Below are positions 12,001 to 18,000 of a stretch of 64,000 bases of DNA, in pieces. Position 1 is the stretch's first letter. Every line of letters begins with the position of its first letter. This DNA comes from Escherichia coli (lineage in GTDB: Bacteria > Pseudomonadota > Gammaproteobacteria > Enterobacterales > Enterobacteriaceae), in the NCBI RefSeq assembly GCF_022846255.1, contig NZ_AP025682.1, one strand, 5' to 3'. The position numbers are program-made.

Positions 12001-15000
12001 GACACCGGCTTCTTTATCAAAGTTAAAGACATCAGAAACCCTGAGTGGCATATTCGATTCTTCCCTCAAGAAGGATCTTATAAAGATCAGAGGGGATTAA
12101 TTAGCTTAAAAAAACAGATGATGCAGTGGATGACCGTTTTTGACTTAATCGTAAATGCTGATACAAAGTAAGGAAAACAAGAATGAAAAAAACCATGCTA
12201 CTATTATTAGCTTCAATGTCGCTGACAGGTTGCAACAGTGAACCATCCGATGCAGATATTTCAAAAGCCATGCAGAGCTTTATGAGTGAGATGCATGGTA
12301 CCCTGAACTCGTCTAAAAAACTTGCGTGTAAAGATATAGAGAGTGATGGCAGTTATCTCTGCTCTGTAGAGTTCGATGCTAAACTTCCAATCGTGGGCCA
12401 TAGAGAATCGACGCTAGAATTAAAGTTTATTAAATCCGATGACTCCTGGAAAGCAATGGCTCCATCTAAATAAACTTAATTATATTTGACAATAGAAAAA
12501 TAGTACGTCATAGATAGTAAATTGATAACAACCAGTGGGTTGAGCCACTGGCTGTTATCCCAATGGTTAATACACGGATGTACTAACCACCATTAAAAGG
12601 ATAAACAACATCACCTTTAATGCACGGGAGCGTTTTTTAGACATACGCCACTCCTTCTTTTTCATCATCAACCTTATTGTTGGTGATGTTGCCTCTTTGG
12701 GCTGATGCAGATTATCATTTTAGAATACTAAAAGCATCCTTTCGGATGCTTTTTTTCGCCTTGAAAATATTAGCAAGATAATAATCCATAAAGGATAATA
12801 TAAAAACCAAAATAATATGCTACGGTAGTTGTTATAAAAATCACATAAAACTACAGTCCATATTTTTTCCTTTTATCCTTCATCAATAATTCTCTTTTTA
12901 GGGTAGAAGCCTCATGTTTCCTTCTCTCATTAATATAGACTTTTTCGGTTCTACTACCATTGCTCACAATGAAATTGATAAGTGAAGAGCATACGTTTTT
13001 CATACGCTCTTTATCGAGCATGTCATTTTCAATATTATTGATATTGCAGTAATAAGAAAGTAGTAAAAAATTCAACACTACTTCCCTGTTTGAGAACGTT
13101 AGTTTTTCTATTTCAGGCTGGTATTTAATGTAGAACCCGGCACAAAACAGGTATGATTGTTCGATAATTTGTTGCTCTGAGAAGTCTGATTCAGAGAGTT
13201 TATCAACGAATCGATCAAGTAGAAGAAGATACCTTTCCATCAAATGAATATTTATTTTTTCCATAACATGCATCCTTGCAATTTATTTTGCCATCCTGAC
13301 AATTAAATAAATACCATAATTATTAATCACGTCAATAGTTAAAACCTATCTATTTTATTAAAGGTATTTTGCAGGTAACGGATTATTAAGTTCTTCAATC
13401 GTTATTTGTTTAAGGTGAGCATTATAAAGCCATACTTTGAACTGCTCTAAATAGCGTTCATTTAATGCCTTCAAAGCCTCATTTTCTGCTTCAAGTCTTC
13501 TAATTCGTTGAGAAGCCACTTTTAAATTAGCAGGTTTTACAGTATGTATTGCACCAGATTTGATAGTGGCCTTTTTCACACTGAAGCTTTCTGCAATCCT
13601 TACATGACTACTTAAGGATTGTCTTGATGGTCTTTTCCCAATAATCCTTACTAACCTGTCGCACAAAGCATCCCAGGTTAGTTTTTCATCTATAGACCAT
13701 GTGTTAATAACATCTACAATCTTCTTCTCATGATAACCATTTATATGCTTAGCCATTTATTCTCCTTTTTTTATTCTCTTATGGAATTCATACCATCTAT
13801 CAGCATTTATGTTCCCATCATTTTTATCATACAGTGTTCTTTTTGAAATTTTATCGTGAATTTTTGAAATCGTTTCGTTATCTAAACCAGAATTCTCAAT
13901 CGGATAATGTTCACACGGCTTAAACGCATATGAGTGCTTGCAGTAGCCATGTTTTGATACCAGTACTGCACCACTACTAAGTGAATCAAACTCATTAAGA
14001 ACCACCACTGGAATATCCTTTATTCTGTGCTCATTAACACACACTGATAACTTTTGTTCTCTTATTGCTTTAGACATTTGAAGATGCGATCTGTGGTCAT
14101 AAGAAAAATTTTGAGAAATAAGCTTACGTCCAGACCAGCGAGCAATACTAAACTCATCCATACCATTTATTTGAGCAAAAGTGTTGAGAAGATGCCTCAG
14201 TTGATGTGTTCTTAGCAAATATGGGCTACCATCATCATTTATATAACCATGTCTTTTAAATACATTTAAATATCCTTTTATATAATCAGAATCAACGATA
14301 TCAGTTTTAAAAAAATTCGTTGTAGGTCTGAATAACTTATCTAACATTTCCTTTTTATTTTGATTTAACTGTCCTTCAGTTAACAAGCAAAGCGCATTAG
14401 AATATTTGATTTTCTTCTCTCTATCATACCAAAAGAGATCTGGAGGTATATTTTCTTTAAGGGTTCCCATCGTTGAATTAGAGTAATTCTTTTGAATTTC
14501 AGCAGCCAATAATCTCGCTTGACTTGATAATTCTTTTAATCTGCTAATAGCCTTTTTTGCTACAGGTATCATTAAAGTTGGAATCCATTTTATATTGCCT
14601 TCATACCCTTTTGCTGAAAAAAATCTTAAACCGTATCTTTGAATGCCCTTTCCATCACATTCTGTAATTTCACAATCCACTGGCAAAGCTAAAATTTCCG
14701 ATATCCTACTCGGTGCACACATAAGTAAAGCAAGCACAGATGTAGTAAATATATCTCTTGACGATAATTGTTCATCCCGCTTTGAAAAAATCTCAGCAAT
14801 CGCAATAACTGATTTGATATCAGGCAATCTAGAATGGCCTTCCAGTGAAGAATCATAACCAGTCCAAGACTGAGTAATCCTATACCTAATTGGACTTATC
14901 CAAAATAAATAAGATGAGTTAGTCATCCTATTATCATTTAAAAATGAACTCAATTTCTCAAGTTCTTTCCCAATAGCAAATGCATGTGCTTTAGAATACT

Positions 15001-18000
15001 TTTCAGAGGCTATCCTTATGCATTCATCAAAGATTGAATTGTTGCAATAGTTTACATTAGCTTCCATATTGATTTTAAGTAAAACGAATTCGACAATCTT
15101 CAACATTGATAATGTTGAGTGTTTCGTCTTAGATTTATTGAATGAATGCACATGCAACATATATGCTTTAGCAAAATTAATAAAGCTATCATCTAAGCAT
15201 TCTTTGCTGTTTAGGTTGTTTTTTGAGTTAAACTTAGTAAACCTATATAAACCTTTCCATTTATTGCTTTCCCAAGAAGTTGTTAAATTATTATTAGAAA
15301 TAGTACTCTTACAAAACTCGATGAACTTAATAACATTATCGTGAGGGTTGTTTTTATTGCTTGGTTCAAAAATAAATATATTGTTCATAATGCTCTCCAG
15401 GGATTGAATTTTTTACACGTTAAGCATTTCAAATCCTCTTTCGTATCTTCTAATAAGAAAAATGCATCTGAAACATACTTGATAAAAAAGTTCTTGTTTT
15501 CTTCAATCTCTATGCCCATAAGTATATTAGATAAGGGGTTAAAAAACGCACTTAGTCTCTTATCGATGTCATAAACGTTGTCAGGATTGTTTTTTATATA
15601 TATCATAGAAGAGTTTACTGATTTATGATCTAAGGCTTTAGCAATCACCTCAATTGAGGCTCCTTCGTTAGCCAGTCGACTTCCTAACGTATATCTGAAT
15701 CTTCTAGCATTAAGTTCTATATAGCTGTTAGTCCTTTCTGACCTAACATCGAATTTTGACGGAAAGTGTTTTAATAGTTTTGACATAACTGAATTTTTCA
15801 TATGGAAAAAATCTGTTGTTAAATCAGATAAAAAATCCTCAATCCTTTTTGTTTCCGTAATCTTATCTAAATTCATGAAGATTGGTAATTCGCCTCTATA
15901 GTTATTAATCCCAACACTGAATTTATCTTCAACAAACGCCTGATTTTGATTAATTAGCATTGATAAACTGTCATATAAGAACGGTTCTATCATTACCATA
16001 TTAAATTCTTTTCTGAAACATTTTCTTTGTTTTACTTTTGGTACATTCAAAAAGCACCCTCTCTCATTTTTAATGAGATCTTTAGCTTTTAGAGATATCA
16101 ATTGTAATGGCCTTCTTCCTGTTATTGCCAGCAAAAGGATATAACAATACAAAAAGCATTGAATTTTCTTCTCATGATAAAATTTTCCAACGGCGTTAAT
16201 AATGTTATTGAATTCCGTTTCAGTTAAAGGTCCTTTATTTGGATCTCGTCTTTTAACTGCATCTCCTGTTTGGTTTGGAATGATTTTTATTTTCTCCAGC
16301 ATTCTAATGGCAGTCGCATCTACCCCAGGGTAATTGAGATTTTTCCATTTAGTGATGAAAGCCTTAATTGAGTTTAGTTTGTAGTTTCTTTCTGAACCTA
16401 AATAAACATTCAATTGATATATTGCTTTGTCATCAATAGTATCGATGGTCATTGCACCAAACCACTTATAAAATAGATTGTTAATATTTTGTATATAAAA
16501 AGAACTATATTCAGACGCATAGTAAGCTAATGTTTTTAAGTAGCTAAGTTTCATTTTTGTAGGCATTCTATCTACAACTTTATGAGGGTATACGCAGTTT
16601 TCTTTATCAAGTTGCCATTTCTTATCTGACAGTTTGAAACTATATCTATTCATCTTAGCAAAAAAAATTTGCTCACTTTCAATACATTTTATTTCCACAT
16701 TAAACCCCACTAATTATTTTACTTACTGATTTATAGACCTTTAGGACGACATCCTTCTCTTGTTGGGATATATATTTAAAATTGTATCTATTACACATGA
16801 TTGACTCCTTTGACCAACCCATTAGATAATTCCTTAAATCTTTCCTTCTACTATATTCTAATTCAGCGCCTTCAATTCCTTTAGAATACATATAATTCCA
16901 AGAGTGCCTTAACCTATGACCTGAAAGATTATATAGCTTTGGACTTGCTCGTTTCAGTGTTGATATCACCTTCTCATAAGCTGAAATGCTTAAGGGTTCT
17001 CCTGCGTTTTTTCCGGTGCAATGAGCCACGAATAAGAAATTATGTTTTTTCCTTTTTGTCATTTTTTCCCTGCTATTGCTTATGTAATCAAAAATTTCAC
17101 TGGCTAACTCATCAGATAACGGAATAACCCTTTCTCCAGTCTTTACTAATGGCTGATAAGCTCTTCCATCTTCTTTTGAATCATGTCTTCTGACTACACT
17201 TAAAGTGTTGTCTCTGAGATCAAAATCATCTATTTTAAGATTGAGCAACTCTCCAGCCCTTAAACCTAAATTTAAGAGCAAGGTAAATATTAGTCTGTTC
17301 CTGACCTGTACTTCCTTATGAAAAGGGTTTTCAATCCCACCAATTTCCAATAGACGGAAAAGCACATTGATCTCTTCTTCATTTAACGATTTTTCAGATA
17401 TTTCATTCATATTCAATGAACTGTTTCTTGGAATATGTGCTCTGATACTTTCAATAAATACTTCTACTTCATACTTTGCATGAATCCCCTTTGACGAATG
17501 AACTAATCCACATAACCACTTAAGGTAGCGTGAAAAAACGTGTACTCTATAACTAAAGGTTCTCTTTGCAATAAACCTATTACTTGCTGATTTTATATTT
17601 ATAATTTTTTGTCTATCGAATCTTTGTTTCGCATATCTTACCAGATCATCTATTTCTGCAACGCTGAGATACTTTTTAAGCTCAATTCTCTCAACTATAT
17701 TAATTTTCCTACTATCTAAGAAATTACTAAAAATTAGTAAGTTAGTTGCAACTATTTCCATAGTTGAGGCGGTTGCGCCTCTATTTCTTATGTCTGTAGT
17801 AAGAAATAGATTTTGATAGTAAGCTGGTAGATTACTATTTTTATCAAGGATCAGGCATCCTCGCTCCCCATTACTCATGATGAATTTCTTTACTTTATAT
17901 CCCATTTTGACCTCATTCTTTACAAATTAATATCACTCTCACTTATTAAATATATTCCAATTCAAAATAATTCAAATTTTTTACAATGGCTTTAGTTTAT

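What the first reader, a model, noticed from the sequence alone, without database searches (positions are those of the whole stretch)
13358..17905. Three tandem, translationally coupled tyrosine recombinases plus a small fourth gene (GInt/RIT/Tn554-like module) nested in a tRNA island that already has a P4-type integrase
Three consecutive genes (401, 441 and 543 aa) each show tyrosine-recombinase catalytic signatures, overlap by 11 and 4 nt, and are followed by a 132-aa coiled-coil ORF. Trios of this kind define RIT elements and GInt islands, and Tn554 uses a related recombinase pair plus small TnpC. Its presence inside an island that also has an intact P4 integrase and AlpA suggests a composite or nested mobile element with two independent integration systems. 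The trio is markedly more AT-rich than the integrase next to the tRNA.
Basis: partly seen in the sequence, partly recalled or inferred. Interest (0 to 1): 0.7.

Follow-up and report, generated by a model that had tools for sequence, protein, structure and literature searches.

The report
GInt-type recombinase operon inside mobilizable island
The four genes are an intact operon of a known type (ginABCD of "GInt" islands: three tyrosine recombinases plus a small helper), but here it is a fixed built-in module of a tRNA-inserting, mobilizable defence island, not a separate element nested inside it.

Summary
Four co-oriented, tightly coupled ORFs of 401, 441, 543 and 132 aa lie at 13358-17905 on the minus strand, in low-GC DNA. 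All three large proteins have the tyrosine-recombinase fold or motifs, with invariant catalytic Arg, Lys and Tyr, and all four genes are under purifying selection.

All four proteins are collinear homologues (30-40% identity) of a demonstrably mobile GInt that sits at the end of ssb on plasmids. The same GinC/GinD proteins are already listed as GInt blocks in Idola et al. 2023.

The "nested independent element" reading is only partly supported. The window's island (2946-21053) is bounded by an 18-nt repeat of the leuX 3' end, as expected for its P4-type integrase.

In every context inspected, the operon occupies the same slot: DUF6387, alpA, ginABCD, orf140, then a MOB relaxase and cargo. This holds for 18 loci carrying the window's allele or diverged E. 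coli alleles, and for 29 of 52 GinC loci from other species. These embedded operons form one GinC clade, separate from the ssb-targeting GInts.

I found no GInt-type ends, no empty site and no stand-alone copy. Alleles are exchanged between islands by homologous recombination in the flanking conserved DNA. What the operon does inside the island is inferred, not shown.

The parts
16700..17905 (-). ginA-like tyrosine recombinase (401 aa)
   Evidence: Pfam Phage_integrase 2e-18. 35% identical to GinA of the plasmid ssb-GInt, E 4e-87. R216, K255, H330, R333, W364 and Y374 are conserved in at least 95% of 47 homologues.
15385..16710 (-). ginB-like tyrosine recombinase (441 aa from the GTG at 16710; 437 aa from the GTG at 16698 as in RefSeq)
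   Evidence: NCBIfam NF041502 'integrase_1' at 5e-97, 325.6 bits, below the 350-bit cutoff. Weak Pfam Phage_integrase match. 30% identical to plasmid GinB, E 2e-63. R200, K227, R339, H362 and Y371 are conserved in at least 95% of homologues. The first His of HxxR is replaced by Arg, giving ARRFRY.
13757..15388 (-). ginC-like large tyrosine-recombinase-fold protein (543 aa)
   Evidence: No Pfam, NCBIfam or PHROG hit. Large family with 1005 representatives. R228, K260, R398 and Y430 are invariant and H395 and W418 are conserved in at least 90%. The family profile aligns the catalytic motifs with XerA. AlphaFold pLDDT 88; Foldseek matches XerH, Cre and Tn1549 Int. 34% identical to plasmid GinC, E 3e-115.
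13358..13756 (-). ginD-like small helical protein (132 aa)
   Evidence: 40% identical to plasmid GinD, E 9e-28. The same protein as WP_001052044, which is listed as GinD in Idola et al. Additional file 10. AlphaFold pLDDT 85: four short helices plus a long helix at 78-115, with no PDB fold match.
17906..18184 (-). Conserved gin leader, probably regulatory and/or a recombination site. It holds TTTGTAAAG at 17918-17926 and 18176-18184, the inverted AATTCTTTAC at 18135-18144, a perfect 20-bp palindrome at 18030-18049, and a block at about 18050-18184 shared between diverged alleles.
   Evidence: Homology among gin-bearing islands ends at 18184. TTTGTAAAG occurs only twice in the 64 kb, both times here. 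ATTTGTAAAGAAT and its inverted form are also found at the left and right ends of the plasmid GInt. The palindrome is unique in the window. Allele-specific palindromes sit at a constant position, 134-151 bp upstream of the ATG. A 44-nt pattern is exact in 12 loci, including the 70%-diverged SX45 allele.
18288..18491 (-). alpA (AlpA-family recombination directionality factor or regulator), directly upstream of gin in every context
   Evidence: PHROG excisionase families. PF05930 Phage_AlpA in identical contexts. AlpA-family RDFs in ROD21-like islands.
18612..19523 (-). DUF6387 protein, a backbone gene paired with alpA
   Evidence: PF19924 in all contexts. RefSeq annotation. Also paired with AlpA at the end of ICEKp258.2.
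19593..20840 (-). P4-type integrase of the island
   Evidence: NF007246 at 5e-72 and phrog_1 at 4e-66. Arm-DNA-bind_3, Phage_int_M and Phage_integrase domains.
21036..21053 (.). attL core: the 3' end of tRNA-Leu(CAA), one copy of the 18-nt direct repeat
   Evidence: repeat D13.
2946..2963 (.). attR core: the second copy of the 18-nt direct repeat, which sets the distal end of the island
   Evidence: repeat D13. Homology to strain TUM11353 starts at 2890.
12851..13273 (-). orf140, a conserved backbone gene with its own promoter-like leader. It is not GInt cargo.
   Evidence: Present next to gin in all contexts and also in gin-less relatives L008, L009 and L023. Its leader is conserved across very diverged gin alleles. 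Found in 422 E. coli genomes.
10185..11372 (+). MOB relaxase of the island backbone
   Evidence: NF041893 TraI/MobA(P) at 1e-19. PF03432 Relaxase in all contexts.
3686..9506 (+). Variable cargo: a type II-like DNA methyltransferase, a REase-like/histidine-kinase-ATPase fusion protein, and two unknown ORFs
   Evidence: The cargo differs between islands.

Best explanation
Window 13358-18184 holds an intact GInt-type ginABCD operon with its conserved 280-bp leader. GinA, GinB and GinC are tyrosine recombinases that keep their catalytic residues, and GinD is a small helical protein.

The operon belongs to an Enterobacterales clade of gin operons that are not free-standing GInts. They are a fixed module of a family of tRNA- or tmRNA-integrating mobilizable islands. 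The backbone order is: P4-type integrase, DUF6387, AlpA (a recombination directionality factor), a slot, orf140, a MOB relaxase, then variable defence cargo.

Shown:
- The island in the window (2946-21053) carries the signature of integration into leuX by its P4-type integrase.
- The gin operon always lies in the slot just downstream of alpA.
- Alleles have been exchanged between related islands by homologous recombination in the conserved flanks.

Inferred:
- The four proteins form a second site-specific recombination machine, as in GInts, where all four are needed for attL x attR and attI x attB recombination.
- It is transcribed from, or read through into, the leader downstream of alpA.
- It acts on a site within that leader, which carries GInt-end-like motifs in both orientations plus an allele-specific palindrome.
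- Its likely substrate is the excised circular island. It could integrate the circle at secondary sites, or copy it out or resolve it. In 12 of 5426 E. coli genomes the same slot holds a plasmid-type replication initiator instead.
For: Identity of the operon:
- ORFs and gene junctions.
- Collinear homology of all four proteins to a plasmid GInt.
- That plasmid GInt is a discrete 11.9-kb unit at the end of ssb, identical in different replicons, with an empty site and imperfect direct repeats.
- Listing of ECs_3509/3510 and WP_001052044 as GinD/GinC in Idola et al. 2023.
- GinC fold and motifs.
- Conserved catalytic residues in GinA and GinB.
- dN/dS of 0.09-0.22 for the pairs where dS could be estimated.

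Island limits:
- An 18-nt exact repeat of the leuX 3' end, and arm-like repeats near both ends.

Fixed slot:
- Same order at leuX, proL, ssrA-ypjA, near yncH and next to proA.
- Same order in 29 of 52 loci from other species.
- Gin-less relatives keep alpA, orf140 and the relaxase, and carry a rep or HTH gene in the slot.

Clade:
- The NJ tree of GinC separates embedded operons from ssb-type operons.

Exchange by homologous recombination:
- Sakai and SX45 have flanks 98-100% identical but gin only 55-78% identical.
- L030 combines the window's alpA side with the SX45-type gin. The breakpoint lies inside the conserved leader.

Leader features.
Against: - No experiment bears on activity, and the function of gin inside the island is inferred.
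- No partner site for the leader was found in the island.
- The hits that cover most of the query in 347 E. coli genomes extend at least to 18184 in every row listed, so no permuted, gin-integrated arrangement was seen.
- The sharp, allele-independent end of homology at 18184, with a GInt-end-like motif right at it, would also fit an old GInt attL.
- Some copies are decayed: ginB is split in CUVET21-1780, there is an IS1 insertion in L017, and gene calls are missing in L017 and L022.
- The NJ tree is midpoint-rooted and has no support values.
- The genome scan used two peptide patterns and is not exhaustive.
Confidence: 0.6

Rival explanations
1. A genuine nested GInt. A GInt lineage has specialised in inserting just downstream of alpA in these islands, as other GInts insert at the end of ssb. 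Its attL would be at about 18184. The element would be either cargo-less, ending right after ginD, or would include everything down to the island's AT-rich distal end.
For: - Homology among all gin alleles stops at the same base (18184), and TTTGTAAAG abuts that boundary.
- The same motif family sits near the ends of the mobile plasmid GInt.
- Distantly related GInts are known to share one target (Bardaji 2017).
- A 720-bp AT-rich non-coding stretch lies at the distal end of the island.
- Gin-less relatives exist.
Against: - No empty alpA-orf140 junction was found. Gin-less islands carry other genes in the slot.
- orf140 and the relaxase, which would be the 'cargo', are backbone genes shared with gin-less islands.
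- No inverted partner motif or flanking imperfect repeat was found.
- Breakpoints between alleles lie inside the leader, not at a fixed end.
- The embedded operons are one clade rather than repeated captures.
Confidence: 0.2
2. An inactive relic. An old GInt was trapped in the island backbone and is carried along passively, with no current function.
For: No second att site was detected. No gin-mediated rearrangement was seen in the rows listed for 347 genomes. Copies are occasionally disrupted.
Against: - All four ORFs are intact in most copies.
- dN/dS is 0.09-0.22.
- Catalytic residues are conserved across about 47 loci down to about 30% identity.
- The leader is more conserved than the coding sequence.
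Confidence: 0.1
3. A RIT element or a Tn554/SE-type transposon rather than a GInt-type system.
For: Three adjacent tyrosine recombinases, as in RIT elements. One ordinary and one large recombinase plus a small helical protein, as in Tn554 and SE elements.
Against: - There are four genes, in the gin order, and all are homologous to a GInt.
- No terminal inverted repeats flank the trio.
- Idola et al. place these proteins in the GinC/GinD clusters.
- Hits to the NCBIfam gamma-mobile-trio recombinase GmtY score only 22-24 bits against a 340-bit cutoff.
Confidence: 0.04
4. A DNA-inversion or cassette-shuffling system that varies the island's cargo, for example phase variation of the restriction-modification genes.
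For: Tyrosine recombinases often drive inversions. The integrase/att cassette is found in opposite orientations relative to the backbone in different islands.
Against: - No inverted repeats bracket the cargo or any other segment.
- The cargo differs entirely between islands rather than being permuted.
- The integrase modules differ in tRNA target, so the orientation difference is a module swap.
Confidence: 0.03

Closest known systems
[quoted passage not shown] 2017, PMC5385486). Called Tn6571-family elements in Hochhauser et al. 2023.
   Same: A four-gene operon in the same order and with the same tight coupling. All four proteins are homologous to those of an ssb-targeting GInt on E. coli plasmids (30-40% identity). 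Similar short motifs lie upstream of ginA. The proteins are already catalogued as GinC/GinD. Both are associated with defence cargo.
   Different: The operon is not at the end of an element. The DNA after ginD is conserved island backbone, not variable cargo. No AT-rich 3' end with imperfect direct repeats, no empty site and no stand-alone copy was found. It is always downstream of alpA in a P4-integrase/relaxase island, and it forms a separate GinC clade. GinC is shorter here, 543 aa against about 650-700 aa.
ROD21-like (EARL) excisable, mobilizable genomic islands of Enterobacterales, such as ROD21, ICEKp258.2 and IE3 (PMC6035254, PMC10763509, PMC8844411)
   Same: This comparison concerns the surrounding island. 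Both have a P4-like integrase at a tRNA gene, an AlpA-family RDF paired with a DUF6387 gene, a MOB relaxase, direct repeats of the tRNA end, and modular recombination between islands.
   Different: EARL islands insert at tRNA-Asn and typically carry TraD, type IV pilin and H-NS genes. I did not see these here. No gin operon came up in my term searches of those papers.
Strand-biased circularizing integrative elements (SE: intA-tfp-intB-srap) and Tn554 (tnpA-tnpB-tnpC)
   Same: Several tyrosine-recombinase-fold proteins plus a small helical protein, all needed for recombination, with target specificity.
   Different: The gene order and protein clusters differ. Idola et al. separate SE from GInt proteins. 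Tn554 has two recombinases and occurs in Firmicutes.
RIT (recombinase in trio) elements
   Same: Three adjacent, co-oriented tyrosine recombinase genes.
   Different: From my own knowledge, RIT elements are bounded by terminal inverted repeats and have no conserved fourth small gene. No such repeats are present here.

Membership tests
GInt | ginABCD operon: three tyrosine-recombinase-like genes followed by a small fourth gene, co-oriented and tightly linked | tested here: met
GInt | Homology of all four products to GinA-D of a functional or mobile GInt | tested here: met
   30-40% identity, E 9e-28 to 3e-115, to the four proteins of a plasmid element that behaves as a mobile GInt at ssb. Listed as GinC/GinD in Idola et al. 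Additional file 10. Not compared directly with the Pseudomonas reference proteins.
GInt | Integrase catalytic motif in the three large proteins | tested here: met
   GinA R216, K255, H330, R333, W364, Y374. GinB R200, K227, R339, H362, Y371, with the first His replaced by Arg. GinC R228, K260, H395, R398, W418, Y430. The literature reports GinC as lacking the first Arg or the RHRY motif. In this family the Arg is invariant.
GInt | Operon lies at the 5' end of the element, with attL just upstream of ginA at a chromosomal or plasmid target | tested here: inconclusive
   Homology ends sharply at 18184, 279 bp upstream of ginA. The flank is always alpA of the same island family, and allele breakpoints lie inside the leader.
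GInt | Variable cargo DNA that starts at the ginD stop codon | tested here: not met
   ginD is followed by orf140 and the relaxase backbone. These are conserved across alleles and also present in gin-less islands.
GInt | Short AT-rich 3' end and flanking 10-17-nt imperfect direct repeats | tested here: not met
   No partner motif or flanking repeat was found for the gin block. The only convincing terminal repeat is the 18-nt tRNA repeat of the whole island.
GInt | A discrete unit found in different sites or replicons, with empty sites in relatives | tested here: not met
   Always in the alpA-orf140 slot. No empty slot was seen. The plasmid GInt, by contrast, meets this test.
GInt | Excision as a circle and integration that both require all four genes | not testable with these tools
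   Needs PCR and genetics.
RIT elements | A trio of recombinases bounded by terminal inverted repeats (from my own knowledge of Ricker et al.) | tested here: not met
   No inverted repeats flank 13358-18184. A conserved fourth gene is present.
Tn554 / SE | tnpA-tnpB-tnpC or intA-tfp-intB-srap gene sets, with protein-level membership | not tested
   I held no reference sequences. Idola et al. place these E. coli proteins with GinC/GinD and report that GInt and SE proteins form separate clusters.
gamma-mobile-trio (NCBIfam GmtY) | Score above the curated cutoff of NF040693 | tested here: not met
   24.3 and 21.9 bits against a cutoff of 340.
EARL / ROD21-like islands (the host island) | P4-like integrase, AlpA-family RDF and MOB relaxase at a tRNA gene with direct repeats | tested here: met
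EARL / ROD21-like islands (the host island) | Insertion at tRNA-Asn, and TraD, type IV pilin and H-NS homologues | tested here: not met
   The island is at tRNA-Leu(CAA). No such genes appeared among the ORFs scanned or in the annotation of the near-identical island L001. I do not file it as an EARL member, only as the same organisation.

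The most novel reading that the evidence does not exclude
The Enterobacterales clade of embedded gin operons may be a GInt recombination machine co-opted by tRNA-targeting mobilizable defence islands as a second, functionally distinct system. The conserved leader would be an unrecombined attI-like site. GinABCD would act on the excised island, either copying it out replicatively or inserting it at secondary sites. 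In that role it would do the job that a plasmid-type replication initiator does in the rare gin-less relatives. These islands would then be mobile elements that use two cooperating tyrosine-recombinase systems.
Probability: 0.2. Interest if true: 0.65.

Novelty: new variant of a known kind. Interest (0 to 1): 0.4.

Why it matters
GInt-type operons are counted in genome surveys as free-standing transposon-like islands, including as carriers of defence systems in E. coli. This analysis indicates that the commonest E. coli version is instead a fixed module of P4-integrase/AlpA/relaxase islands. It is present in about 6-7% of complete genomes, including O157:H7 Sakai and EDL933.

If that holds, surveys that equate 'ginC-ginD block' with 'GInt' mis-delimit these elements. 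These islands would then carry a conserved four-protein recombinase with no known substrate.

The system is easy to work on: E. coli strains, a defined leader with candidate sites, and natural gin-less and rep-bearing relatives. It could be used to ask what the three-recombinase machinery does, and whether it explains the copy-out behaviour reported for GInts and SEs.

Tried and rejected
- Rfam scan of the island at a permissive threshold. Only the tRNA matched, so the conserved leader is not a known RNA.
- Search for a right end. I looked for direct and inverted repeats across 2800-21200, for TTTGTAAAG and TTGTAAAGAAT on both strands, and for the 20-bp palindrome. No partner was found.
- The ginD-orf140 spacer considered as a possible attR. 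It is a conserved promoter-like leader of orf140 shared by all alleles, not an element end.
- The 5.3-kb block 12852-18184 considered as a mini-GInt that includes orf140. Rejected because orf140 is also present in gin-less islands and follows the backbone rather than the gin allele.
- The apparent inversion of the backbone relative to the integrase (window against W2-5). It is explained by the integrase/att cassette lying in either orientation at the same junction of the circular map, so it is not evidence of gin activity.
- Phage collection: no GinC homologue.
- PADLOC: no defence-system model matches the four gin proteins, orf140 or DUF6387.
- Single-sequence PDB search for GinC gave only noise.
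- Foldseek for GinD gave nothing significant.
- The broad 65-sequence GinC alignment was too diverse for the genome scan, so a 15-sequence alignment was used instead.
- Simple promoter and terminator scans gave fewer promoter-like sites than the shuffles and no site in the leader worth citing.
- Literature searches for trios of recombinases in AlpA/relaxase islands found no description of this architecture.

Full report
**1. The observation**

- 16700-17905, 401 aa;
- 15385-16710, 441 aa from a GTG start;
- 13757-15388, 543 aa;
- 13358-13756, 132 aa.

I read the junctions directly:
- A/B overlap by 11 nt if the upstream GTG is used. RefSeq starts B at the GTG at 16698, one base after the stop of A.
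- B/C share ATGA, preceded by GGAGAG.
- C/D are TAAATG, preceded by AAGGAG.

GC is 0.30-0.33 over 13-18 kb and 0.38-0.44 over the integrase region. tRNA-Leu(CAA) lies at 21030-21114.

**2. What the proteins are**

*GinA-like (401 aa).* It matches Pfam Phage_integrase at 2e-18 and aligns with archaeal XerA over the catalytic motifs.

*GinB-like (441 aa).* It matches Pfam weakly. It matches NCBIfam 'integrase_1' at 5e-97, below that family's cutoff.

*GinC-like (543 aa).* It has no hit in Pfam, NCBIfam or PHROGs.
- It belongs to a large family, with 1005 representatives at E <= 0.001.
- In a 65-sequence alignment R228, K260, R398 and Y430 are invariant. H395 and W418 are conserved in at least 90%.
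- The family profile aligns these residues with the Arg, HxxR and Tyr motifs of XerA.
- Eighteen of the 65 members have sub-threshold Phage_integrase hits.
- An AlphaFold model (pLDDT 88.4) matches XerH, Cre, XerA, Tn1549 Int and IntI over both domains.

*Conservation across species.* Across about 47 loci from many species:
- GinA keeps R216, K255, H330, R333, W364 and Y374.
- GinB keeps R200, K227, R339, H362 and Y371. An Arg replaces the first His of HxxR.

*Selection.* Between the window and the 95%-identical Sakai allele, dN/dS is 0.15-0.22 for all four genes. Between the window and the 70%-identical SX45 allele it is 0.09 for ginC and 0.17 for ginD. For ginA and ginB against SX45, dS was saturated and no ratio could be computed.

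*GinD-like (132 aa).* It is all-helical, with four short helices and a long helix at 78-115. It has no structural match.

**3. Relation to GInts**

A tblastn search of plasmids found GinC homologues at 34% identity. In an IncN plasmid the context is: ssb, a 415-aa integrase, a 512-aa integrase, a 677-aa protein, a 139-aa protein, then Avs4 and AbiGi.

That 11.9-kb segment behaves as a mobile unit:
- It is 99.9-100% identical in unrelated plasmids, always at ssb.
- Sister IncN plasmids have the empty site.
- The junctions show the imperfect direct repeat and the replaced ssb stop codon described for GInts (Bardaji et al. 2017).

All four window proteins are collinear homologues of its four proteins:
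- GinA: 35% identity, E 4e-87;
- GinB: 30%, E 2e-63;
- GinC: 34%, E 3e-115;
- GinD: 40%, E 9e-28.

Independently, Additional file 10 of Idola et al. 2023 lists ECs_3509/ECs_3510 of O157 Sakai as ginD/ginC. It also lists WP_001052044, the GinD of the near-identical strain TUM11353, 56 times. Hochhauser et al. 2023 already note GInts as carriers of defence systems in E. coli. The module is therefore a known kind.

**4. The island around it**

The 3' end of tRNA-Leu is repeated exactly (18 nt) at 2946-2963 and 21036-21053. A second, 25-nt repeat lies just inside both ends. The island is therefore 2946-21053, with the signature of its P4-type integrase at 19593-20840.

Beyond the distal repeat lies a truncated second P4-like integrase at 1949-2818. 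It is a remnant of an older island inserted in tandem.

Reading from the tRNA, the island contains:
- the integrase;
- DUF6387;
- alpA;
- ginABCD;
- orf140;
- small genes;
- a MOB relaxase at 10185-11372;
- a methyltransferase and REase-like cargo.

This is the organisation of ROD21-like (EARL) mobilizable islands. In those, an AlpA-family protein is the recombination directionality factor, and in ICEKp258.2 it is paired with a DUF6387 gene at the island's end.

**5. Is the operon an independent nested element?**

*Distribution.* The close allele is present once per genome in 363-381 of 5426 complete E. coli genomes, always on the chromosome.

*Contexts.* I inspected islands at the following sites:
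- leuX;
- proL-yejO;
- ssrA-ypjA, which includes Sp17 of O157 Sakai;
- a site near yncH;
- a site next to proA.

The order DUF6387, alpA, ginA-D, orf140, then a relaxase on the opposite strand, is found at all of them (in Sakai the region beyond orf140 is IS-disrupted and no relaxase is annotated). This includes alleles whose DNA is only 70% identical or no longer alignable.

*Integrase position.* The integrase lies either next to DUF6387 or at the far end of the island. On the circular map this is the same junction with the integrase/att cassette in either orientation.

*Gin-less relatives.* Relatives without gin keep alpA, orf140 and the relaxase. In the slot they carry a replication-initiator or HTH gene on the other strand. 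The rep type is rare, at 12 genomes, against 422 genomes with orf140.

*Sliding identity.*
- Sakai and SX45 share flanks that are 98-100% identical, while ginABCD is 55-78% identical.
- The window and W2-5 show the reverse pattern.
- The unit exchanged is therefore ginABCD plus its leader, about 13330-18184. orf140 follows the backbone.

*Breakpoint.* In L030 the window's integrase, DUF6387 and alpA are joined to the SX45-type gin. The breakpoint lies inside the conserved leader at about 18066. That is what homologous recombination predicts, not a fixed att site.

*Ends.* I found no flanking repeats, no right end and no empty slot.

**6. Beyond E. coli**

A pattern scan of one genome per species returned 52 GinC loci. 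Mapping the neighbours by tblastn gave three groups:
- 29 loci, all Enterobacterales, with DUF6387/AlpA upstream and/or orf140/relaxase downstream;
- 13 loci, mostly other Gammaproteobacteria and Betaproteobacteria, with ssb immediately upstream and neither backbone gene in the usual position;
- 10 loci that were other arrangements or truncated contigs.

In a neighbour-joining tree of GinC the embedded operons form one clade, apart from the ssb-type operons. The association with this island backbone is therefore old, and is most simply explained by a single origin. The caveats are that the scan is not exhaustive and the tree has no support values.

**7. The leader**

Homology among gin-bearing islands ends at 18184, 279 bp upstream of ginA. 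Several features mark this stretch:
- TTTGTAAAG occurs only twice in the 64 kb, at 18176-18184 and 17918-17926, both on the gin strand.
- The inverted form AATTCTTTAC lies at 18135-18144.
- The plasmid GInt has ATTTGTAAAGAAT near its left end and AATTCTTTAC near its right end.
- A perfect 20-bp palindrome at 18030-18049 is unique in the window.
- Four sequence-distinct perfect palindromes of 16-28 bp lie 134-151 bp upstream of ginA in different alleles. Most ssb-type loci have none.
- The block at about 18050-18184 is nearly identical between alleles whose genes are 70% identical.

These features suggest protein-binding sites, either an operator, a recombination site or both. What they do is unknown, and no known RNA family matches them.

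**8. Mechanism**

Shown: see sections 2-6. In short, the operon is identified as GInt-type, the genes are intact and under purifying selection, the island is bounded by a tRNA repeat next to a P4-type integrase, the slot is fixed, the embedded operons form a clade, and alleles are exchanged by homologous recombination.

Inferred:
- By analogy with GInts, where all four genes are needed for attL x attR and attI x attB recombination, the four proteins form a second recombination machine.
- It is expressed downstream of the RDF gene.
- It acts through the leader on the excised circular island, either for secondary integration or for copy-out or resolution.
- I give this functional step about 0.3.

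Two observations count against any recent gin-mediated insertion. The near-full-length hits in 347 genomes extend at least to 18184 in every row listed, and no permuted arrangement was seen.

**9. Verdict**

The assignment to the GInt kind is right and is already in the literature. The reading as an independent nested element is not supported.

What is new is modest. The common Enterobacterales gin operons are a distinct clade built into P4-integrase/AlpA/relaxase islands, and their leader is conserved and structured. Interest is moderate (0.4). Novelty: a new variant of a known kind.

Noticed in passing
window 1949-2818 (-), next to the repeat at 2946-2963: A truncated second P4-like integrase (289 aa, NF007246 at 1.5e-49) lies just beyond the island's distal tRNA repeat. 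It is about 64% identical at the DNA level to the island's own integrase. It is probably the remnant of an older leuX island displaced by tandem insertion.
   Followed up: partly
window 3686-9506 (+): The cargo looks like a four-gene operon. It has a type II-like N6-methyltransferase (561 aa), a 769-aa protein, and two overlapping ORFs of 373 and 247 aa with no family match. The 769-aa protein joins an N-terminal BbrUII/HgiDII-like restriction domain to a C-terminal histidine-kinase-type ATPase. The restriction-kinase fusion is unusual and may be an uncharacterised defence system.
   Followed up: partly
window 18030-18049, and the equivalent positions in L005, L007, L010, L030-L034, L049, L050, L053 and L063: Four different perfect palindromes of 16-28 bp sit at a constant distance (134-151 bp) upstream of ginA in different gin alleles: TTTATTTGACGTCAAATAAA, TTTCTTTCACGTGAAAGAAA, CACCTTATATAAGGTG and TCTAATATCCCTCTAGAGGGATATTAGA. 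Palindromy is conserved while the sequence changes. The protein that binds them is unknown.
   Followed up: partly
window about 18050-18184: A non-coding block is nearly identical between gin alleles whose coding regions are only about 70% identical. A 44-nt pattern is exact in 12 loci. It contains a GGTACGG...CCATACC hairpin-like repeat and an ACGTAA...TTACGT repeat. No Rfam family matches it.
   Followed up: partly
window 12851-13345 (-): orf140 has no family match, and its leader (TTGAC..., GTCAGGATGACAAAA, AAGGATG) is highly conserved. It is present in every island of this backbone, with or without gin, in 422 E. coli genomes. dN/dS is about 0.1. Its function is unknown.
   Followed up: partly
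window 3017-3041 and 20887-20911: A 25-nt direct repeat (88% identical, TACCATCA.T.ATACCATCAT.GGT) lies just inside both ends of the island. These are candidate arm-type binding sites for the P4-type integrase or AlpA.
   Followed up: no
L008 9900-11950 (E. coli 2014C-3075, leuX): A sister island is 95% identical over the integrase, DUF6387 and alpA but has a replication-initiator gene plus a small ORF in place of ginABCD. That rep gene resembles those of 4-kb plasmids. The variant is present in only 12 of 5426 genomes.
   Followed up: partly
L011 6026-17952 (IncN plasmid of E. coli AR_0369, and other plasmids): An 11.9-kb canonical GInt carrying Avs4 and an AbiGi-family gene is inserted at the last codons of the plasmid's ssb gene. 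It is identical in IncN plasmids and in plasmids of 329-655 kb, and the empty site is seen in Citrobacter IncN plasmids.
   Followed up: yes
GinC family (alignments A4 and A7); window 13757-15388: Most GinC homologues are 650-700 aa and have a Cys-rich C-terminal motif (GYCxHDYxxxPC...C.NC). The E. coli embedded version is 543 aa. It lacks an insertion of about 70 aa after residue 300 and part of that motif. The first catalytic Arg, reported as missing from GinC in the literature, is invariant in this family.
   Followed up: partly
L005 11836-13196; L017; L022: Some copies of the operon are damaged. ginB is split into two CDS in CUVET21-1780. L017 has an IS1 insertion next to the integrase and lacks a ginB call. 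L022 lacks a ginA call.
   Followed up: no
window 37001-38000 and 40001-42000: Two further low-GC stretches (0.34-0.39 against about 0.52 in the surrounding DNA) lie outside the leuX island. I did not examine them.
   Followed up: no
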